In this document: positions 1 to 26,097 of the stretch, piece by piece
Numbering within the stretch: the stretch's first letter is position 1
Layout of the letters: every line of letters starts with the position of its first letter
From: a virus
Lineage: Duplodnaviria; Caudoviricetes
Reading direction: 5' to 3' (one strand)
DNA length: 30,166 nucleotides
Virus record (IMG/VR): IMGVR_UViG_3300047669_001117
Coordinates: 1-30,166 of that record
Program-made: the position numbers and the translations under genes
The notes under the pieces: model-generated
What the model was told of the DNA's origin: nothing
The model's database searches: none
What the model saw: the letters and a program-made list of their open reading frames with translations, nothing else

Positions 1-422
1 TCCAATAAAAGACTTATATCGCTGTCATGTTTTCCATCTTTTGTTGTTTGTTCAAAATACGAGTGAAGTGCATTTAATTTTGAATCTTGTGACAGAGTGG
101 TTGTAACATCTAAAATTAATGATACATCAATGTCTGGTACTTCATCCGATGTATTGATTGTCTCAATTATTGAATTCATCTTATTTAGAAGAGTGACATA
201 AGTACTGTGATTTATATCTTTATAAATATTATAACTACACCAATACACAGATGTATGTAATGCATGTGAACACAAATCAATAAACTTATTAGTAGTACTA
301 CAGTTTTTTGTTAAATTGTAGGTCACACTATAAACTGGATTTACGTCTGTTATCGGCAAATATACCTCTTCTCTTATAGGCGGGATTACGGGTAGTTGAG
401 AAAGTGTTATTTTAAGTTTCAT
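1..422 (-). CDS. Hypothetical protein, 3'-truncated by window edge (not in ORF track)
   Basis: Manual translation: ATG at 422-420 overlaps the upstream TGA (ATGA). The frame is open for 140 codons to the edge: MKLKITLSQLPVIPPIREEVYLP...QDSKLNALHSYFEQTTKDGKHDSDISLLL. Confidence 0.85.
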   Translation of the reverse strand, partial: MKLKITLSQLPVIPPIREEVYLPITDVNPVYSVTYNLTKNCSTTNKFIDLCSHALHTSVYWCSYNIYKDINHSTYVTLLNKMNSIIETINTSDEVPDIDVSLILDVTTTLSQDSKLNALHSYFEQTTKDGKHDSDISLLL

Positions 423-1807
423 TGTGTTGTCCACCATTCATATAGTTCATTGTCTGCTTTATATATATCAGCGATTGTAATCTTTTCATCTCGGATTTCA
501 TCTAGTCTATCTTGGAATCCTTTGCCACTCTTTTTACCTTGAACAAATTCGTCTGGATATTGTTCTTCAAATGAAGGTCTATTTCTCATCTCACGTAATG
601 TATTTACTAGTGTTGCTTGTTTGCCAGTCGCACGAGGTTCAATGTACTCAAGTAGTTCGTCAATCTTTCTAGCAAGAATATGTTTCGGCCAAGCAAAGGG
701 CGAGAATATAATATCTGGATGAAACGCAAACATAATCTTTGTTTCTATTCTCACATCAAGTTCTAAACTCAAATCAAATAAGTCTTTGATACTAAACATA
801 CCTGGACCAGTAATTGTCAAATCAAATCTCATTCTATCTTTGCCACCTGGTGCGGCTAAACCTTCTTTGAAGTTTTCTAACCATTCTTCCCAAACAATTC
901 CTTTACGAATGAACTCAACGATATCACCTGTTCCATCTATACTCGCACACATCAACCAATCTTTAAACTGTGGTAGATAGTCAAATAGTTTTTGACCTTT
1001 GAATTCTGTACGGGATAGATTAGAATTATATCTTAGATGGCAGTTCTTTGCTGACCCATTCTTGACCATTTCTTCTAATGCCCACCAATGTATATCATAC
1101 ATCAACGGTTCACCACCAACCCAATATATTTCTTCAACGATACCTTTTGAAATTGCATCTCTAAATTCTGGTTCAACAACTTCAGTCTGAAACGCAGTCA
1201 TCTTCTTCTTAACATCTTTCTGCATAAACGGTTGTTGTTCTATGCTCCACATATTATTCTTTTTCTTCTCTGCTTCCCACGATGACGATAACTGTTCGCC
1301 ACACATACGACACTTGAAGTTACATAAGTTTGAGTATCTGTAATCAAATGAGATAACAGGCATTGTTGTGTGTCCGTCATCGTCTGTATTGTCAAATGCT
1401 TCTTGTATCTTATCTCTGAATAGAAAACCCGTAAACCATTTACGATACGAAGAGATACTTAGAATGTCATCGTTGCATACGTCACATTGTGATATAGTTT
1501 CGCCTGCCATAAGTTTCTTGCGAATATCTTTCATGTATGGTGAGTTCCAATGTTCTTCTAAACTGACAGGATTGAAATCGTCTGCTAGTGTTTTAGATTC
1601 TTTTATCTCACCATACTTTGTATCGTTAGTCGCATCAATGTATTGCTTTTGAAATGAATGTTCTTCTCTACTCGCACAACACATTCTTCTCTCTGCTTGA
1701 GGAGAAATATAAGTGTGTGACCACGGAGCCATGCAGAAAGTTTTGTTCTCACTTTCTTCTGCACAACTTCCGTCGCTATTCCAAATTGGTACTATCTTAT
1801 TACTCAT
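419..1807 (-). CDS. Radical SAM protein with N-terminal Twitch-like Fe-S domain (rSAM-1)
   Basis: CxxxCxxC (NLCNFKCRMC), GGEP motif (VGGEPLM), N-terminal CMAPW...MCC...CDVC, ASIDG strand and FIRKG motif. Confidence 0.93.
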   Translation of the reverse strand: MSNKIVPIWNSDGSCAEESENKTFCMAPWSHTYISPQAERRMCCASREEHSFQKQYIDATNDTKYGEIKESKTLADDFNPVSLEEHWNSPYMKDIRKKLMAGETISQCDVCNDDILSISSYRKWFTGFLFRDKIQEAFDNTDDDGHTTMPVISFDYRYSNLCNFKCRMCGEQLSSSWEAEKKKNNMWSIEQQPFMQKDVKKKMTAFQTEVVEPEFRDAISKGIVEEIYWVGGEPLMYDIHWWALEEMVKNGSAKNCHLRYNSNLSRTEFKGQKLFDYLPQFKDWLMCASIDGTGDIVEFIRKGIVWEEWLENFKEGLAAPGGKDRMRFDLTITGPGMFSIKDLFDLSLELDVRIETKIMFAFHPDIIFSPFAWPKHILARKIDELLEYIEPRATGKQATLVNTLREMRNRPSFEEQYPDEFVQGKKSGKGFQDRLDEIRDEKITIADIYKADNELYEWWTTQ

Positions 1808-7282: not shown

Positions 7283-7851
7283 ACTTTCCTCCAAGAATAT
7301 TTGTCAAAATACTTCTGCGTATAAACGCTTATACTGTATTTATTCTCTTCGAACTTAACTCGTTTCCCAGTAGACAATAATTCAGAAAATGGGATTAATA
7401 TAGTTTTGATTAAGAATTCTGGTTTATCTTTATATGTAACAAAAAATACATGTTCAGTTCTGCCCGCTACAGTCACTACTTGTTGTGCATCAATTCCTAT
7501 ACTTTTCTTCAAACTTTCACTTGCTTCGAATACTAAGTCGCCATCTTCAATATAGAGTAGAATATCAGAATCTGGTATTGTTGTTATCTTATGTAACTGA
7601 TTGTCTTTATTTCTTCGATTAAGATCAACTTTTGTTTTTATAATTTCATATATTAGTGGATTACCTGTTCGAGTAATTATATGGTCTGAGAATTTCAGAG
7701 TACCCTCAAGAAATGGTTTAATTGTTTCAAAATCAAACCATGCAAATAAATCTTTTGTATCCTGAATTTGATTTGTTATCTGAGTAATCTTACTTAGACT
7801 ATCAAAGTATACAGCACGAGACGAATCAGTTTTTTCTATAAGACTTAACAT
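7279..7851 (-). CDS. Hypothetical protein (~190 aa)
   Basis: ORF coupled to both neighbours. Start moved to ATG 7851 (TAA-T-ATG junction). No recognisable catalytic motif. Confidence 0.8.
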   Translation of the reverse strand: MLSLIEKTDSSRAVYFDSLSKITQITNQIQDTKDLFAWFDFETIKPFLEGTLKFSDHIITRTGNPLIYEIIKTKVDLNRRNKDNQLHKITTIPDSDILLYIEDGDLVFEASESLKKSIGIDAQQVVTVAGRTEHVFFVTYKDKPEFLIKTILIPFSELLSTGKRVKFEENKYSISVYTQKYFDKYSWRKV

Positions 7852-7852
7852 A

Positions 7853-8707
7853 TTATTGTGCCCTCTCAAGTTGTGCAATCTTACTACTATCCATCCAATC
7901 CTTCTCTACGTAATGTAATGGTAATGTTTGGGTGAAGTTGCCGATCTTAATTTGTAAGTCATCTCCCATTTCGCTAGTGATACTCTTAGTCCAGATGTTC
8001 TCTATTTGGTTTGCAGGAACATTCTGAATCATACTTTTCATATGAACAAAAGTAGGAACATCTTTGATAGCATAGTCACAGGTTTCTTCTTCAATATCTA
8101 ATAGTTGAATTGCTAGTGCATACGCAACATCCGCACTCATCCAATTCTGTCCAACTCCAGAAAGAAACTTATCAAAGTATACATTCCAATGAGTCATAAT
8201 CAACTCAACCATCTTAAAGAATTCGTAAGTTAACTCTGACTTTTTAAAGTAAGTGAAGTTACTATACACGTTCGGTAGATTTAATTGAGTAAACTTCTTT
8301 CTGTAGTAGTCACTTGTTACATCTTCGTTTCTGAAAGTTTTAACATTAGTGCAACACCAGACATCTCTCTTTGCTAGATACTGCCACCAATGATCTACAC
8401 TAGTAGTAAACACCATATCACTGTCGAGTATGATAGTTTCGTCATACGGAGTCATGTGTGGATATTTCCATTTATTATGAATCTTCCACTTGTCTCCTTT
8501 AGCATCATCGTTCCAGGGAATATCAACTATGGCATCAAATGCTTGAATATGTTTGTCCGTGATTAGTTTTCTTGTTTCTTCATCTACACATACACATAGA
8601 TTGCTGTTCTCTTGGGTTGCTTTTAGACTGAGAGCAAGTGCATAAGACATTTCCAAATAATCAATATCACCACTATTTTGTGCGATAGTTATATATCCTT
8701 TACTCAT
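7853..8707 (-). CDS. Putative GT-A glycosyltransferase (GT8-like)
   Basis: KGYITIA...YLEMSYALALSLK...NKW...TPYDETIILDSDMVF (DxD), late His motifs FVHMK and LHYVEK. Confidence 0.8.
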   Translation of the reverse strand: MSKGYITIAQNSGDIDYLEMSYALALSLKATQENSNLCVCVDEETRKLITDKHIQAFDAIVDIPWNDDAKGDKWKIHNKWKYPHMTPYDETIILDSDMVFTTSVDHWWQYLAKRDVWCCTNVKTFRNEDVTSDYYRKKFTQLNLPNVYSNFTYFKKSELTYEFFKMVELIMTHWNVYFDKFLSGVGQNWMSADVAYALAIQLLDIEEETCDYAIKDVPTFVHMKSMIQNVPANQIENIWTKSITSEMGDDLQIKIGNFTQTLPLHYVEKDWMDSSKIAQLERAQ

Positions 8708-9575
8708 TTACTTTTTCTCCGTATAATAAGAAGTCGTCAATGAATCGTGCTATCGCCTTCTTGTTCATAATGTGCAAATCAGTATTCGTAAATCTTGATA
8801 GAATATGTTCTGTAATTCTCTCTGCATCTGCACAATACATAATAATGTCGTTATGTGAATTGACTCTGAAGATATCATCTATATCAAAACTATTGTTAAG
8901 ATATCTAATTGGTAATGATGGCACATCAAACGCAACACTACCATTCAGTATGTGTAGTGCCATTGAAAATGCAAAATCATTTCGATACAATGAACCACTA
9001 CAATTATACAAGTAATAATAATACTTATAATTATATTTTATATGGCTTATTAGTGTGAATAGATTCTCAGCAAAGTCAGATTTTTTAAAATACACAACTG
9101 TTGCCCAGTACATTGGGATGCTAAAGTTATCAATGTATTCTATATGTTCTTTATGTCTACCAGATACATCTCGATAATGACAATTAATCATAAGATCATT
9201 TTCACTATTCCATACCTGGTCTAATACGTCATTCATAATGAAATAGTCACCGTCAATGACCAACGTCTCATCATACGGTGAGAGTTCGTATACTTCGCTC
9301 CTAGACATGTTCTTGAAGGATGCGTATTCTGTCTTATCTGTTGTGTCTTTAAACAGTCGTCTATTATCTGGTTGAAAAGAATTGGTGACTATTATTCTAT
9401 CAAAGTATTCATTGATTAGTGTTTCGTTTTGTTCTAATGTTTCTGTATTAGTGATTAAACAGATTTCATCGAATAATGAAAGATTCTTTCTGGCTAAACC
9501 AGCACACGCACAGGCAGTTTCAGCATAGTTGACGTACTCATTGTTCTGAGCAAATATTATTATACCCTTACTCAT
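8700..9575 (-). CDS. Putative GT-A glycosyltransferase (GT8-like), paralogue of downstream gene
   Basis: KGIIIFA...YAETA...SPYDETLVIDGDYFI (DxD), RNDFAFSMAL, LHIMNK. Confidence 0.78.
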   Translation of the reverse strand: MSKGIIIFAQNNEYVNYAETACACAGLARKNLSLFDEICLITNTETLEQNETLINEYFDRIIVTNSFQPDNRRLFKDTTDKTEYASFKNMSRSEVYELSPYDETLVIDGDYFIMNDVLDQVWNSENDLMINCHYRDVSGRHKEHIEYIDNFSIPMYWATVVYFKKSDFAENLFTLISHIKYNYKYYYYLYNCSGSLYRNDFAFSMALHILNGSVAFDVPSLPIRYLNNSFDIDDIFRVNSHNDIIMYCADAERITEHILSRFTNTDLHIMNKKAIARFIDDFLLYGEKVNE

Positions 9576-12697: not shown

Positions 12698-15600
12698 CTA
12701 TAAGTCTTGTAAAACTATTTGCAACGGAGTATCAAGCACATATACAGTGTCAAGATTTGTAAATCCGTGTCCTAATCCAGTATATAACGCTCTATTGCTA
12801 ATGGTTAACTCTCTGCTTACTTTTTTCTCGTATAACATAAATTCTATATCAGAACTTCCTGCTTTTTGAACTGCAATCAGTTTTTTATTAGTATTAGATG
12901 CACCCGCATCGAATAGTGTTGCGTCTGATGACGTAACTGTAAGAGTTGTGCCAGTGAATGCAGATATAGTTCCTGTAGCAGAAGCATTTACACTATAACC
13001 TCTACCGTAAATATCGTAAACATAAAATATTGTTTTCTCTAAAGTATGTCCAGATGTCCCGCCAGTAATATCGACATCATAATCTTGTAATCTTACTATC
13101 GTTGCTTCGAGTCCATCGAATCTTACGAAGCCAGTATCAAATCCAGTGTTAGTATTTGTTAGATTATTTCTGTTTCTTAGCAATGAACCTTGTTCGTATT
13201 CTCCGTCTGATATACTTGAGAACGAATCAGGATTTGATGTGTCATAGTCACCGCCGTCTATCAATTGTTCTGCGTATCTACTTATGCCACCTTTGCCGAA
13301 TGCTATAGTCTGTATCATCTTTTCATCAATCGTAGTAGATGCAGTTAGTTTATCACTTGTTGAATGTGTTCGTGTAATTTCTCTTACTTTAACGTGATAT
13401 GGTTTTGCTTCTCTAACATATTCTAATACATCAGTCTCACTATCTCTTTGATACACAGCGTACTGTTTTAAATCTCTGTTATATAAATTCAAATCTATAT
13501 AACTTGTTTTAAACAACCAAGCAGGATAACTCTTTTCTGTATAAAGATAATTCACCATAGTGAAGAATATATTATTAATAAACGATGTGTCTGGATAATC
13601 CTGAATCATATTCATTAATTCTTGAATTTGAATTCCAACCGCATTGTCGTAATAGGTAGTAAATGATGTTTCTGGATATACCATGCTATCAAATGACACA
13701 CTCAATGAACTCTTACTTCTGTTAACTAATTTTAATACACCATCATGTTCAAAATAATATTCGTTATGAGTTGGTAATTTTATCTTAAATGATTTTATTC
13801 CACTGTTATACTCAGCCATCATATCAAAATTTCTAGTAGTTGATAGATACGAGAATACATCTATTGCCTTGTAATTATCATTTAGATACCAATCAGTTAG
13901 TTTAAAGATAATATCGTCAGTATCTATGTACTCCTTATAACTAGCATATGCACTTAGTAGTAACTTACTTTTCATTGTATCATTTATAATCGAAGCGAAA
14001 TTGCTTCTAGCAGTGAGATTGTTTGTAAACCAATTGTCAGCCTTACTCGCAACTTTGTACACTCTTAATATATCTCCTTCTATCATCGTGAATGACGTGC
14101 GAGATATCTTCAAGTTAGAACCATCAATAGTTAGATAACTTGCTTTTACGGTATCACTATTAACTGTGACTACTATGTCATTGATGGCTAAATCTGTAAT
14201 CCATGAAATTGGAATTATTGCGTGGTTCACATCAGATAATTGAGATGATGATAATCTCTGATTATAAGTATCTACTATTGTAAGATTAGATAATGAATCT
14301 ACCATATCAGTCAAGAATTTAGCAGGTACAGTAGTATCTGAATTCTCTGCTAACATCTCCCAATCAGAGTGACCTTTGCGAACTCCAGTCTCTTGTTGGT
14401 AATGTAATGTGGCACTAATTGTTTCGCTGTCATATGATGTAGCATTATTACTAATGAGGACACTTGATGAGCCAACTGGGATAAATTTATTCTTAGTACC
14501 ACCAGCAGAAATCAACATTGCAATTTCTACAACATCAGTACTTGCTGATGACCAGTAGAAATAATCTGTAACTTCTTTGCCCGCGACATCATCATAATAT
14601 TTCTTAGTATTATATGTTAGCGTCTCAACTGGTAATATTCTAGATTTCGTCCATTTCTTTACAACTACTGATGAGCCTGGCACTAATAGTCCCCAATATT
14701 TCTTCACGAATTTGACATCTAAGTTTCCATTGCTATCACCGTAATCATTGTATCTATAAAATCTTGATAAGTCAGTGTCCCACCAAATTTTATCCAACTT
14801 CTCATCTAACCATATATCAGAACTAGTTACTACATCATAACTCGCAGGGTCATTCCATGCGATGTAATCTAATTTAGAAACAATTGAGCCTGGCATCTTT
14901 AAATTAAGTGGATCATATATTTGATGATTAATAAAGTTTTCGCCATCCTTTATTATCAATCTTTTTGTTAAATCAGTGTCTATAACTGCTGATTGTTTAG
15001 CATACACTGAAAGTGTTCCTGTTGAACTTCTATCGAGTATCGCCCAGCCCTTATTCTCGTAATCATCTATCCATAGTTTACTTGTGCTATTCAGTCCTAA
15101 ACTACTATAGAAGTCTGTAAAAGTTGTACCATTAACACCCGAAGTATGGCGGATTGATTTCCAAAGCATTGCTTTGTAATTTGCACTACTTGTTACCGCA
15201 GAGTAATCTCTTACAAGACCTACTCTAGTTAACAATTCTGTTGTTGTTCCAGAGAAAGACATACTTACTCCAGCATGAGTAAATATCATTCTTCCATCAC
15301 TAGATAAATTAACTGATAGTCCCGCAGTGGAGGCTGCAGTAATTTGTCCAGCAAATCCTATTGCAGTAGAACTTAATACTGATGTGTTTGAAAATGTACC
15401 AACTGTTATTCCGATATCAGATAGAGAATTTCCTGTGATATTGCTAGTCACTATACTCTTTTCAGAACTCGTTATTAGTATTTGTCTGTCAGACTGCGTT
15501 GCAGTGGTTCCTGATGTAGAAAATACTTGAGTATTTAAATCATTGAGAATATTAACAGTAGCATCAACGATTCCATCTGAAAGTGATGCAAATCCTAATC

Positions 15601-18600
15601 TCCCCATAGCACCAGCAGTTACTTCGACTATATCTAGGTTATGATTTGTACTTGTTATCTTAATCGTGCCAGTTACAACCGCGGCTGATACGCCTGTTAT
15701 ACCCAAAGCGTTTATTTGTGCAACAACACTTGTTGCTGTTGGATTAGAATTCGATTGATATGTGCCTGCTGTGATTCCTAATTCGGATAATGCTGTTCCA
15801 GAAATAACCATTGAAGTGGCTGAACTTGCTATTACTATGTTAGTACCAACAGTACAAGTAATATTAGTTAGTGTATCAAGTTCGGTTGCTAAATTATCTA
15901 GTTTTGAATCGTAATATAATGTACCAGCAGAGAGACCTAGGTCTAGTAACACACTGCCCGACATATCTAATTCAGGAGATGATGTTGTTAGAACTAATTC
16001 GTTAGTTCCCGAGTTACTAGCAACTACTGAAGTTGATATCGAATTGATTGCTATAATAATATCAGCCAGAGTATCTCCGTTCGTAAGTGTCACAACTTGT
16101 CCATTAATTGATAATGGTTTCGTAGATGTCATTACTGGGGCTGTTACTGTTCCGGTTCTAGTTAAATCTGCTACTGTCTTTGTTACTCCATCGATAACAA
16201 CAGTTGTGCCTGTCGTTAATGGTGAACTCTTCACCGCTGTTGAAGTTAATGAGATTCCAGCAGAAGCACTGTAGGCTACAGTCAATGTTGTGCCGTCAAT
16301 TGTTAATATATCACTCACTGTTGAACTAAATGCGCCCGTTGTGGTAGCAACAGTACCAGAGAATGTAACTGTAGTATTTGTTGTGTTCTCAACTAATCCA
16401 CTAGCATTGTAAATAACAAATCTTGCTTGTTCGCCTTCTGCTACAACTGGGTTTGCAACTGTTCCTAGTATTGATATTCCAGAGGCAGAGGCTGCTCCAG
16501 GTGTATAAGTAAAACTCTCACCATCAATAATGAATATGTCACTGCCAGTGAATACCGGATTACTTACTGAACCGATTGCTTCAATGCCTGCATCTGCGTT
16601 CGTTGGAACAAAAATACTACTAGTAGTTGATGCATCTATTTCAACAATCACTGGCTCAAAATCTTCTTCGAATACTAGATATTCGTAGATAGTTGTGGCA
16701 CTTACTGTTTTTGTTCCATTTGCGGCAAGTAAATAATATCCATCTATCGATGGGTCTATTTCATCTCCAGAAATCTTTATATAAATTGGTTTATCAACAA
16801 ATGCAGAATCTATTGCAGTAAGCATTCCAATATATAATTGGTTGTCAGAAGTTTCTCCAACATAACTTATCTCTGCTACTTCACTTAATCGTACCACATC
16901 CCAGTCTCTATCTGTGTCGAATTGAACCCAGGCTGTGTCTCCTTCATATAATGTAGTAGTTGATGTTGCTAAATCCACTAGATCTTTTTGAGAGTTTACT
17001 TTGTAGTTTACATCTGAAGCATCAACATATCCTGCTGTTTTTATCGCTAGTGTGGGCTTAGTTGTTTGAGCAATAAGCGTTTTTGTTATGTTTGAATATT
17101 CTATTAAGAATGGATCACTAATCATATCATTGACTGTTATATCTTTTGTCATTGTAAGATTAGTTGATTCGTGTCCGTAGTCGCTTAACTTAACTGCCCA
17201 TATATCAGAATGCTTGATATCTTTAAAGTTACTATTGTTATTAACAATTCTATTAATACTTGAATTTGTTCCTTTGTGAGATAAGAATCCTTTATAGAAT
17301 TCTAGTTGTGATTCTCTTTCAACTCCATGGTTAGACAAGTATGCTCTAGTTGTATATCCCATGTGATTTGATTTTAATTTGTTAACTACCGACAATCCTT
17401 GGTCAACAAGAGTGTTTCTGTAGTGACGAGTTTCTTCAATCATTGTGTCAAAGTTTGGTATTAATTGATTATCGTTTACAAGATAACCATCAACAGACAT
17501 AGTTCCGTCCCAATCTACTGTTCGGTTACAATCAATTTGCATTCTAAGATTTCTAGTATGAGTGTGTGGGTCATATATAATATCTTCGTAACTGTCAACT
17601 CTGTCAACAACGAATGCGTGTTCGATATCTCTTACATCCATTTTCATTCCGTAGATAGGAATATTACTAGTGAATGATAATTTAGCACCGTCAGTGTGGA
17701 AACTAAGTTCAGTACTCGGTATAAGTCTGCCTGATGCATCTACTACTCGATAAAAATTCTTGAATGTTTCAGTGGCAACACTCGCAACACCATAATTAGC
17801 ATTGAAACTACCACCTGTTAATAGTGGAGTCAATGTAATGAAATCTCCAATGGTATGCTGTTCGCTCTGCCAATCTAAGAACTTGTACAATAGATTTTCC
17901 CAATCTATGATATCCCCACTTTGGTCTGAATCTGTAAATTCCCAACCTACTAATTTTAAGTAATGTTGATAACCCATAATTAAATGAGCAACATCATCTA
18001 CTGTTTCTAAGATATCGCCGTAATTATAATTCTTTATGGTATCATCTACTAACTCTTTATAACCACTCGCATGTGTTTTGTTTGTTGTTGGCCATTCTGT
18101 TACTGGTTTCCAATCTTTAATATTATCATCAAATATTGTAGTTGACGTATGATTTGTAAGACAAACATAAGGAGTCTCATTCCATAATACATATGAATCT
18201 AGTCTATAATATTCTCCACCTTGCCATTGTTTCAGAGGAAGTTTATCACCTGCTGTTGAAAATACTTTTTCGCCACTTGCTTTGTCCCAGCCCATCGAGT
18301 AGAATGTTGGATTAATCTCATCATACCCGTGTACTTGAAATCCAAACTTATTTGTCTTTGGTTGTGATATAAGTGTCCATGCACTATAATCAAAGGCGAT
18401 TACATTAGGTGTCGCTGATTCTTTTGCAGTTTGAGTTGTTACTTTTCTTTTATAATACTTACTATCATTTGAATTTAGAACAATATCTCCTTTAACATAA
18501 GTTGATGTACTAGCCAGGCTATATACAGGATATGGCACATCTAATGATACTTTTTCTAATACAATTGCACTGAAGTATTCACTTCTATTTGGTACACCAG

Positions 18601-21463
18601 CATGAACAAATAAATCATAATTGTCTGTTGGTATCTCAGAAAATCTACTATTAGATAATGAGTTGTTCTCTGATTGTAGTTTGAAATTGTTAACGAAGCC
18701 GCCTAACTTTGAACCTAACTTAAATGAATACTTGTCTTTGTCAGCAAGAACAACACTAGTGTCTATGCCTTCGTTCTTATTAGAGTATGTAATAATTTCT
18801 TTTATCTGCGTACTATAATTGTACATAACTTCAAAAGGACTCGACAACAACATTAACATAAATTCAGCAAAAGCAAATTCACTACTTCTTGTCCAAGCGA
18901 GTTCTACTGGTGAACCATCACCGAACTCCCATGCTTGACTCATCAATAGTACATCACTAGATGTTATTGCACTGCCAAAGAATAAGTCACTTGGTGTCTT
19001 TAAGTTTCCAGAAGCATCAACGGGCACTGGACAAGATAACGAATTTGTCGATATCAATGTTGTCCAAAATGAAGTCAATGTATAATCACTACCATATGTT
19101 GCATCAAATCCCGTTGGTTGTTGTGATAGTTTTATTGCTTTCCATGGTTCTAAAAGAGGTCTATCTGTGCCATATGCATTTATTAGTTGTCCTCTCCAGT
19201 GTCCACTAGAATTCTCATCCTTTGCTCGATAGTTCCACGTTTTATATGCTGAGGCATCTGCATCGAAGTCGGTGTTCTCTAGGTTGTCTACATTATTTCT
19301 CATCATCCATTTCTTAAAGAATGGATACATAATGTATTTCTTTTCAATATTAGAATAATCAGCACTAGCGGTGCCATATAATCCATAATTCATTGCATCG
19401 ATATCAGCACTACTTGGTTCATGTATGTTACTTAGACTATTAAATACTAAAGTTTCAAATGAAAGAAGTACAGTATCGATTCTGTTTCTTTTGCCATCTT
19501 CTTGTGGGTACGAAGGTGTCAATGACCCGTCATGTCCTCGAATAAATTCGACATTAGAACTATATTCTGTATCTGTGATATAAGCAGGTGGATATACTGG
19601 CGCAATCTTCAATGATGCCGCACTTGGTGGTATATAAGTTTCTTTTGTATTAGTGTAATGTCTAACAGTTAATTTATCACCTGCTGATAGTGTTTTTTGA
19701 AAATGTATTTGTGTTGCACCAGATGATAATGTGTAATCTATTAGTAATATCTGAATGACGTTGTTTAGAATAACAACAATATCTTTATCGTTTAATATTG
19801 CATCACTGAACGTTGGCATTACTTGTTCTGTTGCGTTAGCGATTACCGTAGCATCTAGTGTTTGATAATGAGAATGAATATCACCAAAGTTTAACATAGT
19901 ACTATCTCTAAAGATACTTACACTTGAATGTTTTCCAAGAGCAATGGTACTAATTGCTTCTTCTAATATTTGTAAATCAGTTTTAGTCGCACTTGAACTT
20001 AATTCTAAAATAGAAATAATAGTAGTCAATAATTTGTTTTTGTACCCATTGTATGCACCAGATAAAAATTCTGTTGCTTTAATCGGGTCGTAGTCGTCTC
20101 GTGTTAGTGCGAAGTATGCCTCTTTGACATCAACTGTGTTACGAATAAGAACACTGCCTTGATCTGCATATCTTAGTTTGTCTGTGTTTGTTCCTGATGT
20201 TCTGTAGTTATTGACTGCGTTTGCATTGCCAGTTAATCCAGGCACAGTTTCGATTATACGAACAAGATGTTCGTAGACAAGAGAGTACGTCATCTCTGTA
20301 TCTACATATGATTTGTTATCTACGTTATATTCAACTGCTGGATTGAGACGTTGGAACACTGTAGCGCCATCATATACAACTGGAGTAGCAGTACAATAAT
20401 CAACGTATACATTGCCACTGACTGCTTCAGTCATTGTAATTTTATTTGTAGCACTACTAAATGTGTAGTTTCCTATTTGTTTCTGTCCCTCTACATATAA
20501 ATCTATTGTACTAGCATTCTTTGGTGCTTGTAGCAATTCGATATCTGTTACTGCTATACTATCACCCAATTCTTGTCTTAGATTTCGATAATCAAATGTC
20601 GATGAGATATATAACTTTTTGTACGCTGTTGATAGTTTGTAAGTCGAAGTCGTTAACAAGTCTATATTAAATACGAATTCACTTTCATAGTCACCAGATA
20701 TTAACTTCGGTTTAAATCCTAGTTCAGTGTCGGTTGTATACAAACCAGTTACATAATGAAATATTTTTATGTCACTGATATATGTATTACTAGAATTATA
20801 TGATTTGAATGTAGGAACAGTAAATGAAGATGAGACTGTTGTTGCCGCACTAGTAACACTCAACTCAATGTTCTTATCGAATTCAATAATAGGTCTTAGT
20901 GCTTGAGATATTAAAGTAAAGTTAGCATCAGTAATTAAGGCTTTAATGTCATCATAGTGATACCATGAATTATTAGTTTTCCAAAAGTCTGTTGCTGTAG
21001 AATCTTTGTCAATCGTAACATAATGCTTCTTTGTTGAACCAGTAATTGATGCATCAAATCCAGGAGATACCCAGTAGTACATACTATAGTTGACAAACTT
21101 GTCTAAGTCTATCGGTAAACTTACTGTCTCTAAACTACTTTTGAACAATCTTCTATGGTCGTTAGTTAACGCACCCTTGTTGTACATTGCGTTGAGCAAA
21201 TCATCATAGAATATATTATCAGTTGCATTTGCATTTGTAAAAGTTGGTTCAAGACCATAATTATCTCTTGCATATGCGGTTGCCGGATACGAAAGATATA
21301 TATCATTGCTGTTATATATTCCTTTTTCTTTTCTACCAACAAATGCTTTTGCCTTCTCCATTTCACCAACAGAGAATACACGGTCGAGTGTAGTTTCGAA
21401 TATTGTTTCTAACTCATCGTTCTTTAAATGACTTGGTAAAAAGTCATAAATCTTCTTTGCCAT
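12698..21463 (-). CDS. Giant baseplate wedge-like structural protein (gp7 position, 2921 aa) with inserted repeat domains
   Basis: Directly follows the gp6-like gene. N-terminal IYDFLPSHL and C-terminal YVREAKPYHVKV resemble gp7/tail-protein-I-type wedge motifs. Carries internal beta-rich accessory domains. Confidence 0.65.
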   Translation of the reverse strand: MAKKIYDFLPSHLKNDELETIFETTLDRVFSVGEMEKAKAFVGRKEKGIYNSNDIYLSYPATAYARDNYGLEPTFTNANATDNIFYDDLLNAMYNKGALTNDHRRLFKSSLETVSLPIDLDKFVNYSMYYWVSPGFDASITGSTKKHYVTIDKDSTATDFWKTNNSWYHYDDIKALITDANFTLISQALRPIIEFDKNIELSVTSAATTVSSSFTVPTFKSYNSSNTYISDIKIFHYVTGLYTTDTELGFKPKLISGDYESEFVFNIDLLTTSTYKLSTAYKKLYISSTFDYRNLRQELGDSIAVTDIELLQAPKNASTIDLYVEGQKQIGNYTFSSATNKITMTEAVSGNVYVDYCTATPVVYDGATVFQRLNPAVEYNVDNKSYVDTEMTYSLVYEHLVRIIETVPGLTGNANAVNNYRTSGTNTDKLRYADQGSVLIRNTVDVKEAYFALTRDDYDPIKATEFLSGAYNGYKNKLLTTIISILELSSSATKTDLQILEEAISTIALGKHSSVSIFRDSTMLNFGDIHSHYQTLDATVIANATEQVMPTFSDAILNDKDIVVILNNVIQILLIDYTLSSGATQIHFQKTLSAGDKLTVRHYTNTKETYIPPSAASLKIAPVYPPAYITDTEYSSNVEFIRGHDGSLTPSYPQEDGKRNRIDTVLLSFETLVFNSLSNIHEPSSADIDAMNYGLYGTASADYSNIEKKYIMYPFFKKWMMRNNVDNLENTDFDADASAYKTWNYRAKDENSSGHWRGQLINAYGTDRPLLEPWKAIKLSQQPTGFDATYGSDYTLTSFWTTLISTNSLSCPVPVDASGNLKTPSDLFFGSAITSSDVLLMSQAWEFGDGSPVELAWTRSSEFAFAEFMLMLLSSPFEVMYNYSTQIKEIITYSNKNEGIDTSVVLADKDKYSFKLGSKLGGFVNNFKLQSENNSLSNSRFSEIPTDNYDLFVHAGVPNRSEYFSAIVLEKVSLDVPYPVYSLASTSTYVKGDIVLNSNDSKYYKRKVTTQTAKESATPNVIAFDYSAWTLISQPKTNKFGFQVHGYDEINPTFYSMGWDKASGEKVFSTAGDKLPLKQWQGGEYYRLDSYVLWNETPYVCLTNHTSTTIFDDNIKDWKPVTEWPTTNKTHASGYKELVDDTIKNYNYGDILETVDDVAHLIMGYQHYLKLVGWEFTDSDQSGDIIDWENLLYKFLDWQSEQHTIGDFITLTPLLTGGSFNANYGVASVATETFKNFYRVVDASGRLIPSTELSFHTDGAKLSFTSNIPIYGMKMDVRDIEHAFVVDRVDSYEDIIYDPHTHTRNLRMQIDCNRTVDWDGTMSVDGYLVNDNQLIPNFDTMIEETRHYRNTLVDQGLSVVNKLKSNHMGYTTRAYLSNHGVERESQLEFYKGFLSHKGTNSSINRIVNNNSNFKDIKHSDIWAVKLSDYGHESTNLTMTKDITVNDMISDPFLIEYSNITKTLIAQTTKPTLAIKTAGYVDASDVNYKVNSQKDLVDLATSTTTLYEGDTAWVQFDTDRDWDVVRLSEVAEISYVGETSDNQLYIGMLTAIDSAFVDKPIYIKISGDEIDPSIDGYYLLAANGTKTVSATTIYEYLVFEEDFEPVIVEIDASTTSSIFVPTNADAGIEAIGSVSNPVFTGSDIFIIDGESFTYTPGAASASGISILGTVANPVVAEGEQARFVIYNASGLVENTTNTTVTFSGTVATTTGAFSSTVSDILTIDGTTLTVAYSASAGISLTSTAVKSSPLTTGTTVVIDGVTKTVADLTRTGTVTAPVMTSTKPLSINGQVVTLTNGDTLADIIIAINSISTSVVASNSGTNELVLTTSSPELDMSGSVLLDLGLSAGTLYYDSKLDNLATELDTLTNITCTVGTNIVIASSATSMVISGTALSELGITAGTYQSNSNPTATSVVAQINALGITGVSAAVVTGTIKITSTNHNLDIVEVTAGAMGRLGFASLSDGIVDATVNILNDLNTQVFSTSGTTATQSDRQILITSSEKSIVTSNITGNSLSDIGITVGTFSNTSVLSSTAIGFAGQITAASTAGLSVNLSSDGRMIFTHAGVSMSFSGTTTELLTRVGLVRDYSAVTSSANYKAMLWKSIRHTSGVNGTTFTDFYSSLGLNSTSKLWIDDYENKGWAILDRSSTGTLSVYAKQSAVIDTDLTKRLIIKDGENFINHQIYDPLNLKMPGSIVSKLDYIAWNDPASYDVVTSSDIWLDEKLDKIWWDTDLSRFYRYNDYGDSNGNLDVKFVKKYWGLLVPGSSVVVKKWTKSRILPVETLTYNTKKYYDDVAGKEVTDYFYWSSASTDVVEIAMLISAGGTKNKFIPVGSSSVLISNNATSYDSETISATLHYQQETGVRKGHSDWEMLAENSDTTVPAKFLTDMVDSLSNLTIVDTYNQRLSSSQLSDVNHAIIPISWITDLAINDIVVTVNSDTVKASYLTIDGSNLKISRTSFTMIEGDILRVYKVASKADNWFTNNLTARSNFASIINDTMKSKLLLSAYASYKEYIDTDDIIFKLTDWYLNDNYKAIDVFSYLSTTRNFDMMAEYNSGIKSFKIKLPTHNEYYFEHDGVLKLVNRSKSSLSVSFDSMVYPETSFTTYYDNAVGIQIQELMNMIQDYPDTSFINNIFFTMVNYLYTEKSYPAWLFKTSYIDLNLYNRDLKQYAVYQRDSETDVLEYVREAKPYHVKVREITRTHSTSDKLTASTTIDEKMIQTIAFGKGGISRYAEQLIDGGDYDTSNPDSFSSISDGEYEQGSLLRNRNNLTNTNTGFDTGFVRFDGLEATIVRLQDYDVDITGGTSGHTLEKTIFYVYDIYGRGYSVNASATGTISAFTGTTLTVTSSDATLFDAGASNTNKKLIAVQKAGSSDIEFMLYEKKVSRELTISNRALYTGLGHGFTNLDTVYVLDTPLQIVLQDL
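15210..16590 (-). repeat. Protein-level nested repeat array (5 N-halves + 5 C-halves, flagellin-hook-IN-like)
   Basis: Five G(T/S)VxxP...I(D/N)G..T(V/L)-type segments followed by five helix-IN...IT...L..LG...GT segments in the translation. Confidence 0.7.
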
Positions 21464-21464
21464 A

Positions 21465-24400
21465 TTATTTGCCTACCAATTCAGATGATGCTAATTGTGT
21501 AATTATTTTTACGTCACTAGATGTTGTTACTGCCATGAATATTTCATTTAATGCACACGATATACTTAGTAAATCTTCAAATTTATTGCCTGAATATTTC
21601 GGTGTAATTACTACACTTGAAATATAATCGCCAAGTTCTTTATGCAAGAATGCCGCTAGTTCTGAGAAGTAGAATGTTGCTCCGAAGTCCCAGTTATTAA
21701 TTGCAAAGTATTCATTTACTTTTGTAGATACTGCTGTTTTAATTTCACTATCAGTGTATCCGACTCCCAGTTTCTTAATGACTTTGAATATTGCTTGGTT
21801 CTCTACTTTAGCATATGAGCCAAATAGATATTTAAACTGTACTGGAATATAAGCAATATGGTCTGCTATTGCGCCCTTCGGTTCAATACTATTCATTATC
21901 TTTGCTAATTCAAAATTGTTTGGAGCAACTGGAACAGTAGTCAAGAAATCATTTGCTATCCATTCATTTACCTTTCTAACATAATCAGCACTCAATACAT
22001 ACATATCGACAATATTACTAGTACTAGGATCTATTCGCTTGTTTATATCAGCATAATGGTCCCATCTAAAACTCGTAAATTCGTCTTTAACGAACGTGAT
22101 GCCCTCTGTCACTCTGTATTGTATACTGTTATAGTTTATTTGAATTAAAGGTGGAGTGACAGTAGTTTGATCTACATGTCCAGTTAATGCACTCCAGCCA
22201 CCCGCTTCTCGGATGTACCAGACAGTATCAGTTGTATTATAATATATTGTTGCGGCTTCTGGAACTTTAGTAGTTGCCGATGCGGCAACTACAGTTTTAG
22301 ATGCTCTTTCATATTTTATATTATTGTTAATGTATTGTTCCATTACAACAGTCTCACCAGTTGTAATATCTAGCATAGCAAATGGATTATCGTTTGTATC
22401 TGAAGTTAATAGTTTAACTTTTGTACTATCTACGTATCCTGCTGGTGTTAAGTAGTCATCATACACATATGAAGATGCATCGGTATAGGTAGTAGTAGTT
22501 GAGTTTGTTCCTACTGACAGTCCAAATGTTGCACTAACTCTCACTGAGAAGTCTGCAAAAGTTGATAATGTCGCACTCGTGCCAATAATTACATCGATGA
22601 GTTCTCCAACTGTTACTGCGTATGTCCAAAAAATAATCTTATAGTTTGTGCCACTTGTATTAGTAACTGTTATATCATCATTACTAAGTATTGTGCCTGC
22701 ACTATTTCTGAGTAAAATATTACTAGTAGTAAGTGCTGTTGCACTTGATACTGTAAATTCTCCGTAAGCATATTGTTTGAAATATATATCAGCATCAATA
22801 CTGTTATAAAGAGCCGATGCGGCAGTAGACATAGTAAAAGTATATTCAGTCGTATTTGCGTCATATACAGTAGTGAACTCATTAGTTTCTGCGGCATCTG
22901 ATACATCAGCCCACTTGAAGTTATTACTTGCCGCGGCTGTGTTAAAATAAGATAACGATATCTTTCCCTTGAATCCTAAAGTATCTAGTTGATTAGACGA
23001 TTGAGTTGAATGTGAATTATTAGAGTCACTAACATTACCAGTATATCCCTCTAGGAATCCAACTGCATCAAGTGATGTGAAAACATCTGAAACAGAAGTT
23101 GCAGTAACGGGAACATCTGTTCCGCCTGATATAGGAGTGCCGCTGTTGCTATAGTTTGCCAAATCGCTGATGGCAGCAGAAAGTTTGTATTCATTCGTGT
23201 CTGCTGGTACCGCTGTATATTCGTCTGTATATCCAATAATCTTCCATGTGCTAGATGTGGGATATGTAATCTCGGTCGCTCTATCGAGATCATATTCTAT
23301 TCCAGCGGGAGATACTAGACTATGAGTATATGTTGCATTATTAAGATAGTCATTATCTTCTACAAAATCGTAAGTTGTTGGAGCACCACTATATTTAAAT
23401 ATAGCATCAAATGTTGCGCCTGTGCTACCATCAGTTGTCAAAGTTGTTATTGGAACTTGTCCCACTGTAACTTTCTTACCACTATCATTAGTTGATGTTC
23501 CTACTGTTGTTGGATCTTCTTTTAAGTAATTAATAAATATAACATCTCGTTTAGCCAGATTTGTTTCATTATCGATTACATCAGTTGTGTTGCCATAGAA
23601 AAACTTAACTTGGTCTCTACTTTCGAATGCAACTTTTTTGCCTGTAAATTTGGCAGTATACTGTGATTCATTATCTCTGATACCAGAATTATAATTAAAT
23701 ACGACAAAGACATCTGATGCCGCAGGTGTTGTTGTGATGACTTTCCATTCCCATTCAGTTGGTTTAGACGCTGAGTATATGTATCGTAACGTAAAAGTTT
23801 GCTCAGTACTACTATCAACTACCTCTTTAATTTTAACGATTTCACCATCCGTGAATTTAGTTCTAAATCCCCTCACTACTGATTTAAGTGTTCCAACTTC
23901 TGGAATAAACTTATTTAATGTAAGTGTATCGTTTGTGTAAGTCGTTGTTTCTACTTTCTTAACATCTGCCCAAATAGTTTTTCCCGATGCAGTCATTAAT
24001 AACTCAACGTAGTCTCCTACAAAAACGCCACTAGTTGGTGCGGCAACTGTTGTAATTTTCATTCCATCTGTTGCATCAACGCTGTAAGTTGTTGTCTGTT
24101 CAATAACTGTATTATTACTAGTAGCAGGCGATACTAATTTATTCTTATGAAAATAACTATTCAATAAACTTGGATGTTTCAGTGCTTTGGATAATTCATT
24201 TCTTATAAAGTTATCACTCTTTCCTTGTAGTTTATTGTAACTCAATGGGATTGATACTATCTCATCTTCAATAAATAAACTTCCATCTGAACCAGTCACA
24301 CTCAAGTTAGAGTGATGTCCTAGAACGTCATCAGTTTCATAAAAACGTGAGTTGCCAGCAAATGATGTATTTACTGATTTTAATTTAGTAACTACATTGT

Positions 24401-25739
24401 TTCCTAAAGATAGAGGATATACATTATAATCTTGTGCATTGACCATTCTGTCTTGTGCGTAATAACTTCTTGGAGCAATTCTTCTCACACTAGAATATGT
24501 TTCACCAGCGAAGTTTTCACCAAAGTCAATCGTACTTGACATTGTTAATGTTAGTCTATAAGTTCTGTTGTCAGTTCCGATATATGGAATTGTTATAATT
24601 TTATCAGTAATGTCGTTCGTATTTACAGAGAAATTATCGTTGTCAACTATTCTATACCATGCTCTGTAGTTGCCATATGCCGCGTTGCCAAAAACACCAT
24701 CTGGATAATGTAGATCAATTCCGTTGTTGTCATTAGAATTTATACTTACAATATCTCCAGAACCAGTTCGTAAACTGTTGTAGATTGCTGTCTCTCTCGT
24801 GTTGTTATCAATTGATGTTACACTTGATACGTAATCTCTAACTGAGTCTATCTTCTGAATCCACACATCAGAATTAGATATATTAGGTTCGTTTATTGCT
24901 TCTATTCTATTTGAGATTTTATTATTATAAGTGAAATCTTGAAATGCAAGTGTGCCCTGTACTGCATATACAAAGAATCCAGTTCTATCACTTGCTGAAC
25001 CCAAACTGTCATTTCTATTAACAATTGTAAAGTTGTTACCTGGGTTAGGCTCCGCTTCAAATATCTTTTTATCAACCGTGTTTAATGCTACACGAACTGC
25101 TTCAAATTCTCTGCCCTTGCCATTAATGTTTGCAGAAAATGGATAGTTTACGCTCTTTGTATTTGTGTCTTCGTTTATCTCATATAAAGAATGCTCAACA
25201 TCTGTTATAGTTAAAGTAGATGATGGATTCTGAATTTTAGTTGTGCCTGCGAATGAAGAATTTAAGATACTGATAAAGTTCTCATACCAATCTACATTAT
25301 TACTGTCATTCCAAATAATATTCTTACCAGCCAGAGTGACACCTTCATTGTCGAGTACACCTTCGTCAGTTGTTACACTAGTAATCTTCATGAAGCCTTT
25401 TGCATTGATTGGTCTAGTTTTGTTGTAACCTAGTGTCTTTGCCATTTGTAGAATACTTGCTCTACGTTCAGCAGTGTCCATGAAGTTCTCACGAGTATTC
25501 ATGTCCAATCTAAATGATAAACTATGTCCAAGATACGCGACCAAATCTAAGATAGCAATAAATTCTGAACTTGCAATGAAATCATTAAATTTATCAGGAT
25601 AAGTTTGAACCGTGTAGGCTAATAATGCCTCTCTGATTGTGTCGAAGTCATATGCTTTAAGACTGATGTTAGTAAATGCAGTATATACTGCTGTCCAACT
25701 CTCACTTGCAAATAAATTGTCTGTTCGTTCTTGGCTCAT
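21465..25739 (-). CDS. Baseplate wedge subunit, T4 gp6-like (enlarged, 1424 aa)
   Basis: YDFDTIREAL...FIAILDLVAYLG...ENFMDTAERRASILQMAKTLGY, YPDGVFGN, GETYSSVRRIAP..YYAQDRMVNAQDY, C-terminal DFGATFYFSEL; follows gp25. Confidence 0.88.
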   Translation of the reverse strand: MSQERTDNLFASESWTAVYTAFTNISLKAYDFDTIREALLAYTVQTYPDKFNDFIASSEFIAILDLVAYLGHSLSFRLDMNTRENFMDTAERRASILQMAKTLGYNKTRPINAKGFMKITSVTTDEGVLDNEGVTLAGKNIIWNDSNNVDWYENFISILNSSFAGTTKIQNPSSTLTITDVEHSLYEINEDTNTKSVNYPFSANINGKGREFEAVRVALNTVDKKIFEAEPNPGNNFTIVNRNDSLGSASDRTGFFVYAVQGTLAFQDFTYNNKISNRIEAINEPNISNSDVWIQKIDSVRDYVSSVTSIDNNTRETAIYNSLRTGSGDIVSINSNDNNGIDLHYPDGVFGNAAYGNYRAWYRIVDNDNFSVNTNDITDKIITIPYIGTDNRTYRLTLTMSSTIDFGENFAGETYSSVRRIAPRSYYAQDRMVNAQDYNVYPLSLGNNVVTKLKSVNTSFAGNSRFYETDDVLGHHSNLSVTGSDGSLFIEDEIVSIPLSYNKLQGKSDNFIRNELSKALKHPSLLNSYFHKNKLVSPATSNNTVIEQTTTYSVDATDGMKITTVAAPTSGVFVGDYVELLMTASGKTIWADVKKVETTTYTNDTLTLNKFIPEVGTLKSVVRGFRTKFTDGEIVKIKEVVDSSTEQTFTLRYIYSASKPTEWEWKVITTTPAASDVFVVFNYNSGIRDNESQYTAKFTGKKVAFESRDQVKFFYGNTTDVIDNETNLAKRDVIFINYLKEDPTTVGTSTNDSGKKVTVGQVPITTLTTDGSTGATFDAIFKYSGAPTTYDFVEDNDYLNNATYTHSLVSPAGIEYDLDRATEITYPTSSTWKIIGYTDEYTAVPADTNEYKLSAAISDLANYSNSGTPISGGTDVPVTATSVSDVFTSLDAVGFLEGYTGNVSDSNNSHSTQSSNQLDTLGFKGKISLSYFNTAAASNNFKWADVSDAAETNEFTTVYDANTTEYTFTMSTAASALYNSIDADIYFKQYAYGEFTVSSATALTTSNILLRNSAGTILSNDDITVTNTSGTNYKIIFWTYAVTVGELIDVIIGTSATLSTFADFSVRVSATFGLSVGTNSTTTTYTDASSYVYDDYLTPAGYVDSTKVKLLTSDTNDNPFAMLDITTGETVVMEQYINNNIKYERASKTVVAASATTKVPEAATIYYNTTDTVWYIREAGGWSALTGHVDQTTVTPPLIQINYNSIQYRVTEGITFVKDEFTSFRWDHYADINKRIDPSTSNIVDMYVLSADYVRKVNEWIANDFLTTVPVAPNNFELAKIMNSIEPKGAIADHIAYIPVQFKYLFGSYAKVENQAIFKVIKKLGVGYTDSEIKTAVSTKVNEYFAINNWDFGATFYFSELAAFLHKELGDYISSVVITPKYSGNKFEDLLSISCALNEIFMAVTTSSDVKIITQLASSELVGK

Positions 25740-25740
25740 A

Positions 25741-26097
25741 TTATTCTCTCTCTAAATCTATTTTTAATTCTACTGGCTCATTCGTTGGTAGAATTTGAAG
25801 GCGCACGATTGCGTTAATAGTGTGATTCGAATCAGTAACTTCAATACTAACAAAGTTACACCGTGGATCATCTTTTATAATTTCTGTTAAATCTTCTTCA
25901 ATTAACTCAGTTGTTTCAGATGTTAAGGGTTCAAATAACATATCATGAATAATAGAGCCATAATTGGGTAGCATTACACGTTCACCTCTACGAGTCATGA
26001 TATGATTCATAAGGTCTTCGACCACTAAATCTTTATCAGTCAACTCATGATTGATTGCTTTTTTACTTTTTGTGCTAAAACCAGTGAATAATGCCAT
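25741..26097 (-). CDS. Baseplate wedge subunit, gp25/GpW family
   Basis: DLMNHIMTRRGERVMLPNYGSIIHDMLFEP...DDPR signature; 118 aa. Confidence 0.93.
   Translation of the reverse strand: MALFTGFSTKSKKAINHELTDKDLVVEDLMNHIMTRRGERVMLPNYGSIIHDMLFEPLTSETTELIEEDLTEIIKDDPRCNFVSIEVTDSNHTINAIVRLQILPTNEPVELKIDLERE

What the first reader, a model, noticed from the sequence alone, without database searches (positions are those of the whole stretch)
15210..16590. Five-fold nested (Russian-doll) flagellin-IN-like domains inside the giant baseplate protein
Seen: five successive N-half segments (SVSNPV..IIDGESFTY; TVANPV..FVIYN..TVTF; ..LTIDGTTLTV; ..VVIDGVTKTV; TVTAPV..SINGQVVTL). These are followed by five C-half segments (TLADIIIAIN..LVLT..LLDLGLSAGT; LDNLATELD..IVIA..LSELGITAGT; ATSVVAQIN..IKIT..MGRLGF; TVNILNDLN..ILIT..LSDIGITVGT; AIGFAGQIT..MIFT..LTRVGL). 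Only the central unit near 16080 is contiguous, and it resembles the flagellin/FliD hook IN motif. Inference: each domain was inserted into the same loop of the previous one. The chain would run out and back as a five-domain stalk projecting from the baseplate, with length tunable by nesting depth. It could serve in adhesion, flagellin mimicry or as a Ser/Thr glycan scaffold for the nearby GTs.
Basis: partly seen in the sequence, partly recalled or inferred. Interest (0 to 1): 0.8.

Follow-up and report, generated by a model that had tools for sequence, protein, structure and literature searches.

The report
Five-deep nested arm on phage protein
A giant structural protein of an uncultured jumbo phage carries five copies of one small flagellum-type domain that are predicted to sit one inside the next, likely forming a fixed-length arm on the tail baseplate whose far end takes swappable extra modules in relatives; such nesting is known from flagella, but I found it described only two copies deep.

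Summary
Observation confirmed. The 2921-aa ORF 12698-21463(-), a GAP32/RaK2-type jumbo-phage virion protein behind the gp25 and gp6-like wedge genes, holds five N-halves then five C-halves (15197-16585) of a ~90-aa domain with the flagellin-D2/FliD-D3/sheath-insertion fold. AlphaFold2 and an ESMFold2 split test pair them anti-diagonally. Natural evidence agrees: three other phage proteins (two nearly identical) carry exactly the inner three shells, and another carries the unit in tandem. Length tuning is not supported in this protein: 103 of 103 family members with both flanks have five shells. What varies is the tip: 45 of 103 carry an extra module in the innermost loop, gained or lost at least seven times. 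Eight cultured relatives lack the stalk. Glycan-scaffold and mimicry ideas have no specific support. Best reading: a fixed-length arm projecting from the baseplate with a variable tip (function inferred). Domain and principle are known (two-deep in flagellins); five-deep was not found in print. The scan reported this stalk before in an orthologue (e1-5595441) and similar ones on other DNA. New variant of a known kind.

The parts
12698..21463 (-). Host gene: 2921-aa giant virion protein of GAP32/RaK2-type jumbo phages (T4 gp7 slot, after the wedge genes; slot assignment inferred)
   Evidence: phrog_10938 E 1.6e-186; 89 phage records match its upstream flank; synteny
15197..16585 (-). Five-shell nested stalk (about aa 1627-2089)
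16502..16585 (-). N1, N-half of the outermost (basal) domain; pairs with Ce
   Evidence: both in the interface; pairing not among the 25 listed pairs, inferred by elimination; weak covariation support
16358..16477 (-). N2; pairs with Cd
   Evidence: 18 of the 25 lowest-error contacts
16274..16357 (-). N3; pairs with Cc
   Evidence: 7 of 25 contacts; model range 102..371 aligns to one domain of 9yh1 (Z 10.1, rmsd 2.2, 89 aligned)
16169..16255 (-). N4; pairs with Cb
   Evidence: model range 136..299 aligns to one domain of 8i4m (Z 7.0, rmsd 2.4, 73 aligned); also 9ndy, 9d93
16085..16165 (-). N5, N-half of the innermost (tip) domain
   Evidence: contiguous domain 165..251 matches 9n8g at Z 11.2, rmsd 1.8, 83 aligned
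16073..16084 (-). Tip loop (4 residues here): the nesting loop of the innermost domain; empty in this phage, filled by a 75-217-aa module in 45 of 103 family members
15908..16072 (-). Ca, C-half of the innermost domain
15752..15907 (-). Cb, C-half of shell 4
15566..15745 (-). Cc, C-half of shell 3
15386..15565 (-). Cd, C-half of shell 2
15197..15373 (-). Ce, C-half of the outermost shell
   Evidence: interface list
21465..25739 (-). Context: gp6-like baseplate wedge gene
   Evidence: phrog_10646 E 1.8e-224
25741..26097 (-). Context: gp25-like baseplate wedge gene
   Evidence: Pfam GPW_gp25 E 7e-12

Best explanation
The segment encodes five N-halves followed by five C-halves of one ~90-residue domain, predicted to fold as five domains each inserted in the same loop of the previous one, and likely forms a fixed-length arm that projects from the tail baseplate and reaches toward the host surface with a variable tip. 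Shown in sequence: the 5+5 order, its invariance in the family, confinement of large inserts to the tip domain, and transfer of the inner three shells as one block into fibre-type proteins. Predicted: the anti-diagonal pairing and the flagellin-D2/FliD-D3 fold. Inferred: the chain runs out through the N-halves and back through the C-halves, so both ends stay anchored in the giant protein; each domain is closed by two crossing chains, which would make a stiffer arm than a tandem chain; about 15 nm long (my estimate from typical domain size, not measured); the base is constrained and the far end is free, so the tip loop works as a display site for an optional beta-rich module. In this phage the loop is empty, so the bare tip domain would be the outermost surface. 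Origin (inferred): one domain entered a variable site of the giant protein and was duplicated into its own permissive loop four times, long ago, then froze at five.
For: AF2 model pLDDT 84.2, pTM 0.61. Structure matches join N5+Ca, N4+Cb and N3+Cc each into one known domain. Split test N1-N3 against Cc-Ce: score 0.83, best of 3 controls 0.00; that mark was reached by 116 of 157 solved complexes and 2 of 215 mismatched pairs; runs agree in at least 95% of contacts, partner pLDDT at least 85; 25 of 25 listed pairs are N2-Cd or N3-Cc (single domains of this fold are solved, so the pass may partly be likeness). P0053, P0133 and P0153 carry N3,N4,N5 then Ca,Cb,Cc and no N1,N2,Cd,Ce, placed inside a split copy of the tip module (N4 of P0053 scores only 9.5 bits, at shuffle level). 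103 of 103 have all ten halves, stalk never under 458 aa. 47 of 103 have more than 40 extra residues, all in the tip domain, 45 in the nesting loop; tip state changes at least 7 times on a flank tree of 101. Column entropy rises from base to tip on both arms: N1 1.30/Ce 1.47, N4 2.00/Cb 1.84, N5 1.81/Ca 1.88. Orthologues are virion proteins (PA5oct record note; phAPEC6 gp245 table).
Against: No experimental structure; I had no model coordinates, so contacts were read indirectly. N1-Ce pairing is the least supported and the first 24 residues of the model are under pLDDT 50. Covariation is weak: MI top 50 gives 23 nested against 20% expected, but mean-field DCA shows no signal in the top 20 (43 of 120 pairings do as well) and ranks the nested pairing 2 of 120 only at top 100. 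pTM 0.61 leaves the angles between domains open, so stiffness is not shown. 56 of 103 members, this one included, have no large tip insert, which weakens display as the sole function. No ligand or host is known. Baseplate position rests on gene order.
Confidence: 0.55

Rival explanations
1. Same nested fold, but an internal strut or docking arm: it holds tail fibres or braces the baseplate against the sheath, and its length is fixed by virion geometry; tip inserts are tolerated decoration.
For: Depth is invariant in 103 of 103, as a geometric fit would require; over half have a bare tip; the same fold is a lateral, non-catalytic domain on sheaths and nozzles (PMC12846349 passage).
Against: Eight cultured relatives assemble tails without it; entropy rises toward the tip; inserts of up to 217 aa at the tip would clash with a docking partner.
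Confidence: 0.25
2. Glycan scaffold: the Ser/Thr-rich arm is glycosylated by the nearby GT-like enzymes and shields or hydrates the tail, or binds through its sugars.
For: Ser+Thr 30.7% in the stalk against 19.4% in the rest of the protein; two ORFs at 7853-9575 look GT-A-like by a DxD-type motif (my reading from recalled family features); flagellin outer domains are O-glycosylated in some bacteria (recalled).
Against: The tandem-unit protein P0059 is equally Ser/Thr-rich (29%), so this is a property of the fold. RsoM2USA keeps both GT-like genes (41.5% and 35.6% identity) but lacks the stalk. The ORFs have no GT hit in Pfam, NCBIfam or (for the one searched) PDB sequences.
Confidence: 0.12
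3. Flagellin mimicry or flagellum binding through likeness to flagellin outer domains.
For: Best structural matches are Vibrio flagellin D2 (Z 11.2) and a two-domain overlap with Campylobacter flagellin (6x80, Z 8.0, rmsd 3.9, 135 aligned).
Against: Identity is only 11-26%; equally good matches are phage sheaths (8kee Z 8.9); no D0/D1 coiled coil is present; the fold is general surface decoration in phages.
Confidence: 0.04
4. The nesting is a misreading: halves are separate tandem motifs or the outer shells pair otherwise.
For: Weak profile similarity for N3, N4, Ce; weak covariation.
Against: Two predictors and the natural three-shell cassette agree.
Confidence: 0.04

Closest known systems
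Flagellin D2 / FliD D3 (Head 2) domain, Pfam Flagellin_IN PF07196 (PDB 9n8g, 5h5w, 6iwy, 4nx9)
   Same: Fold of each unit (central unit Z 8.9-11.2, rmsd 1.8-2.1); in FliD this domain is itself a loop insertion (PMC5072837 passage); homologues pass the Pfam cut-off.
   Different: Five copies self-nested, in a phage virion protein, with no D0/D1 filament core; the window's own unit is below the Pfam cut-off.
Campylobacter / Helicobacter flagellin outer domains (PDB 6x80, 9ygu, 9yh1)
   Same: The inner two shells superpose together on two outer domains (135-138 residues aligned, rmsd 3.9-4.1), so two-deep nesting of this fold appears to be solved already.
   Different: Two levels, not five; part of a polymerising filament subunit.
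Geovibrio thiophilus flagellin D4/D5 (PDB 9au6; PMC11532411)
   Same: Published case of a duplicate inserted in a loop of its parent (passage).
   Different: Two levels. The paper relates D4 to FliD D2; my match to 9au6 spans 177..589, probably its D2, so D4/D5 may be a different domain using the same principle.
Phage sheath insertion domain (XM1 InD, A-1(L), phiTE, Mu, E217) and 'Russian doll' sheath proteins
   Same: Same fold used as a lateral insert in phage structural proteins (PMC10457771, PMC12846349); nested layout named Russian doll (PMC6088184).
   Different: One copy of this fold per sheath; nested sheath domains are of different folds, not self-copies.
phrog_10938 giant virion protein of GAP32/RaK2/PA5oct/Atu_ph07-type jumbo phages
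   Same: Homologous flanks (about 25% identity) and gene order.
   Different: 8 of 8 cultured members examined lack the stalk; some carry other inserts there.

Membership tests
Pfam Flagellin_IN (PF07196) | Score at or above the gathering cut-off 22.7 | tested here: inconclusive
   Window protein: no hit at E 0.1. Orthologous central units of P0047 (24.9) and P0048 (35.8) pass; 9 of 11 scanned do not.
Flagellin-D2 / FliD-D3 fold | Two-sheet sandwich with flanking helix, N-half strand plus hairpin, C-half helix plus strands | tested here: met
   Shells 5, 4 and 3 of the model align to single solved domains (Z 11.2, 7.0, 10.1). Shells 1 and 2 were not matched by a listed row.
Flagellin / FliD proteins | D0/D1 coiled-coil core for filament or cap assembly | tested here: not met
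   No long helices in the segment; no flagellin N/C family in the protein.
Self-nested domain repeat | N-halves and C-halves pair in reverse order | tested here: met
   Four of five pairs read from predicted models; outermost by elimination. Prediction only.
Self-nested domain repeat | Halves gained or lost in matched pairs | tested here: met
   P0053, P0133, P0153 keep N3-N5 with Ca-Cc only. Seen in other proteins, not in orthologues.
Length-tunable stalk | Number of shells varies among orthologues | tested here: not met
   103 of 103 have five; 43 of 43 IMG/VR loci that span the stalk have five, of 52 fetched (overlapping set).
phrog_10938 giant virion protein | Profile match and position after the wedge gene | tested here: met
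   E 1.6e-186; synteny.
Baseplate component | Located in the baseplate of the virion | not testable with these tools
   Orthologues are in virion proteomes; position not resolved in the papers read.
Glycosylated virion protein | Sugars on Ser/Thr added by phage GTs | not testable with these tools
   Indirect tests gave no link.

The most novel reading that the evidence does not exclude
A clade of uncultured aquatic jumbo phages has a plug-and-play receptor arm: a five-deep self-nested stalk of fixed reach whose single tip loop takes host-binding modules up to seven levels of nesting, and whose inner shells move as contiguous cassettes between baseplate and fibre genes. Self-nesting would then be a general phage route to rigid, swappable adhesion arms, parallel to tail-fibre swapping.
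Probability: 0.3. Interest if true: 0.68.

Novelty: new variant of a known kind. Interest (0 to 1): 0.45.

Why it matters
Most repeat proteins grow by tandem duplication; this one grew inward, five times in one loop, and the same unit also occurs in tandem in another phage protein, giving a natural pair for asking what nesting buys (stiffness, two-chain joints, both ends anchored). Profile searches see only the innermost copy, so such stalks are under-annotated. If the tip is a host-contact site, it marks an overlooked host-range determinant in a large group of uncultured jumbo phages and a ready scaffold for domain display. The surprise is tempered: the fold, its use on phage tails and two-deep self-nesting are published, and this scan has already reported the orthologous stalk.

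Tried and rejected
Pfam and PHROGs gave no family for the segment; NCBIfam only a sub-cut-off FlgL match on the central unit. PDB sequence search: 2 chance-level hits. tblastn of the segment against 50,697 phage records: no match. Single-sequence AF2 of the P0053 cassette failed (pLDDT 30.7) and was not used. Atlas search of a double tip module gave only scores under 0.8, so the tip module's family is unnamed; its beta-rich nature is read from sequence. Whether the second module in 7 double tips is a copy of the first is not established (hhalign probability 3%). No sixth shell in any of 46 tip-loop inserts over 15 aa (best 6.8 bits). No half profile hit in 17 distant family members (best 8.8 bits, P0124, under the shuffle maximum of 10); N5 scored 11.8 once elsewhere in the RsoM2USA protein without a C-half. 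The tip module was not found elsewhere in the window. Covariation was weak. DNA repeats and GC gave nothing. Literature searches with no relevant paper on multi-level self-nesting or this stalk: 0 papers; 15 listed, only sheath 'Russian doll' relevant. The library lacks most subscription papers, and no supplements were read (Supplementary Fig. 5A of PMC11532411 bears on which FliD domain Geovibrio D4 matches). Rejected: length tuning by depth, flagellin mimicry, a specific link to the GT-like genes.
Full report
Setting. The window is a 30-kb fragment of a virus record. Its minus strand carries a tail-baseplate module: lysozyme and hub-like genes, gp25, a gp6-like wedge gene, then a 2921-aa ORF at 12698-21463. 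That ORF matches phrog_10938 (E 1.6e-186); its upstream flank finds 89 phage records, of the GAP32/RaK2/PA5oct/Atu_ph07 kind, at 23-28% identity in the 50 listed, with the same gene order in 7 of 7 records opened. The orthologue is marked as found by mass spectrometry in PA5oct, and the 382-kDa gp245 next to the wedge gp244 is in the phAPEC6 virion table (PMC7247149, passages). A place in the baseplate is inferred from this order only.

The observation. An unrelated 851-aa phage protein with an Mtd_N domain, P0059, carries the same unit as contiguous tandem copies; its units align half to half with the window's, and profiles built without it hit it at up to 23 bits against a shuffled best of 10.0. 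This defines the intact domain and shows that only the central copy in the window is contiguous. Similarity among the halves is uneven, and no DNA repeat remains.

The fold. AlphaFold2 with 44 rows gave pLDDT 84.2, pTM 0.61. The central unit matches Vibrio flagellin D2 (9n8g, Z 11.2, rmsd 1.8, 83 aligned), H. pylori FliD (6iwy, Z 9.4, rmsd 1.9, 76 aligned), E. coli FliD 104-209 and the cyanophage A-1(L) sheath (Z 8.9). FliD 104-230 is the loop-inserted Head 2 domain (PMC5072837, passages). The window's unit misses Pfam Flagellin_IN, but 2 of 11 homologues scanned pass the cut-off.

Nesting. I could not read model coordinates, so I used three indirect routes. First, aligner ranges: model residues 136..299 fit one 93-residue domain of 8i4m, and 102..371 fit one 104-residue domain of 9yh1 at Z 10.1, rmsd 2.2, so N4 closes with Cb and N3 with Cc. 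Second, the outer parts folded as two chains with the inner two shells left out: score 0.83, best of 3 controls 0.00 (the mark was reached by 116 of 157 solved complexes and 2 of 215 mismatched pairs; runs agree in at least 95% of contacts; partner pLDDT at least 85); 18 of the 25 lowest-error pairs are N2-Cd and 7 are N3-Cc; N1 and Ce are both in the interface. Single domains of this fold are solved, so the pass may partly reflect likeness. Third, natural cassettes: P0053, its near-copy P0133 and P0153, fibre-type proteins of another family, carry N3, N4, N5, Ca, Cb, Cc and none of N1, N2, Cd, Ce (3 of the 41 proteins). P0153's block is 55% identical to the matching part of P0084's stalk, tip module included, while P0053's is closest to other members (43-48%). 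In both the block sits inside a split copy of the tip module. Covariation leans the same way but weakly. I put the five-deep architecture at about 0.93.

What varies. Of 121 proteins over 1500 aa in hand, 103 had both flanks in order; 18 were dropped (one truncated, 17 distant). All 103 have all ten halves and a stalk of 458-682 aa. 47 have more than 40 extra residues, all in the innermost domain: 45 in the nesting loop itself, 2 elsewhere in that domain. The 45 form one sequence family: 36 single modules of 75-112 aa, 7 with a second ~60-aa module inside the first, 2 with a ~120-aa probably helical insert at the same place. None is a sixth shell. Presence of the module changes at least 7 times on a midpoint-rooted flank tree of 101 proteins; direction was not tested. 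Entropy rises from the outer shells to the inner ones on both arms. Eight cultured relatives lack the stalk: RaK2 and XaC1 are about 485 aa shorter across the site, Atu_ph07 and Phosso carry about 830 aa more of other sequence, RsoM2USA lacks it too.

How it likely works. The chain leaves the giant protein through five N-halves and returns through five C-halves, so the arm has both ends at its base and each joint is crossed twice. A constrained base, a variable far end and a repeatedly filled tip loop fit an outward arm that presents an optional module to the host surface (0.55). An internal strut whose length is set by virion geometry explains the fixed depth and the 56 bare tips as well (0.25). 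A glycan scaffold has only composition behind it: Ser+Thr 30.7% against 19.4%, but 29% in the tandem protein too, and RsoM2USA keeps the GT-like genes without the stalk (0.12). Mimicry has no specific support (0.04).

Against what is known. The fold is a known lateral insert of phage sheaths, nozzles and capsid proteins (PMC10457771 and PMC12846349, passages). Nested layouts are known in sheaths (PMC6088184, passages). A duplicate inserted in its parent's loop is published for Geovibrio flagellin D4/D5 (PMC11532411, passages), and the inner two shells superpose together on Campylobacter flagellin (6x80, Z 8.0, rmsd 3.9, 135 aligned). I found no paper on five-deep self-nesting or on this stalk, within an open-access library. 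PMC7318152 (passages) added nothing on the protein's position. Earlier notes of this scan report the orthologous five-shell stalk (e1-5595441) and six other nested stalks, one said to be nine deep; these are unchecked notes and not support.

Verdict. Real, well supported by prediction and natural variants, a new variant of a known kind; function inferred. Interest 0.45.

Noticed in passing
P0059 residues 163-790: Mtd_N-headed phage protein with about seven tandem, contiguous copies of the same domain: the un-nested counterpart of the stalk.
   Followed up: partly
P0153 residues 743-1180; P0053 residues 407-763: Fibre-type proteins in which the tip module is split by the three inner shells; P0153 has a second tip module inside those, five levels in all. 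The two blocks resemble different subclades of the giant protein, hinting at separate transfers.
   Followed up: partly
P0016 and P0036, innermost domain: Two further insert types in the tip domain: a ~50-aa module shared by both, which in P0036 appears to sit inside a Gly-rich beta module, again nested.
   Followed up: no
L054 and L057 (Atu_ph07, Phosso giant proteins, about aa 1680-3150): The same region holds about 830 extra residues with many Gly-x-Gly-Tyr beta repeats like the P0036 insert; they may be nested too.
   Followed up: no
window 419-9575 (-): Four radical-SAM paralogues in a row, a 332-aa ORF and two GT-A-like ORFs without family hits, directly behind structural genes; the block is syntenic in Ralstonia phage RsoM2USA (35-45% identity for most). 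A possible virion-modification cluster.
   Followed up: partly
window 26236-26826 (+): A ClpP protease gene (Pfam E 1.4e-77) on the opposite strand between gp25 and the lysozyme gene.
   Followed up: no
giant ORF aa 1079-1107 (window about 18143-18229, -): Weak CBM_5_12-like motif, below cut-off here and in homologues (E 0.00025 in P0048).
   Followed up: no
tip modules of P0070, P0073, P0084, P0086, P0102 and others: An Asp-rich loop at the module's own insertion site, possibly calcium-binding (recalled motif likeness, untested).
   Followed up: no
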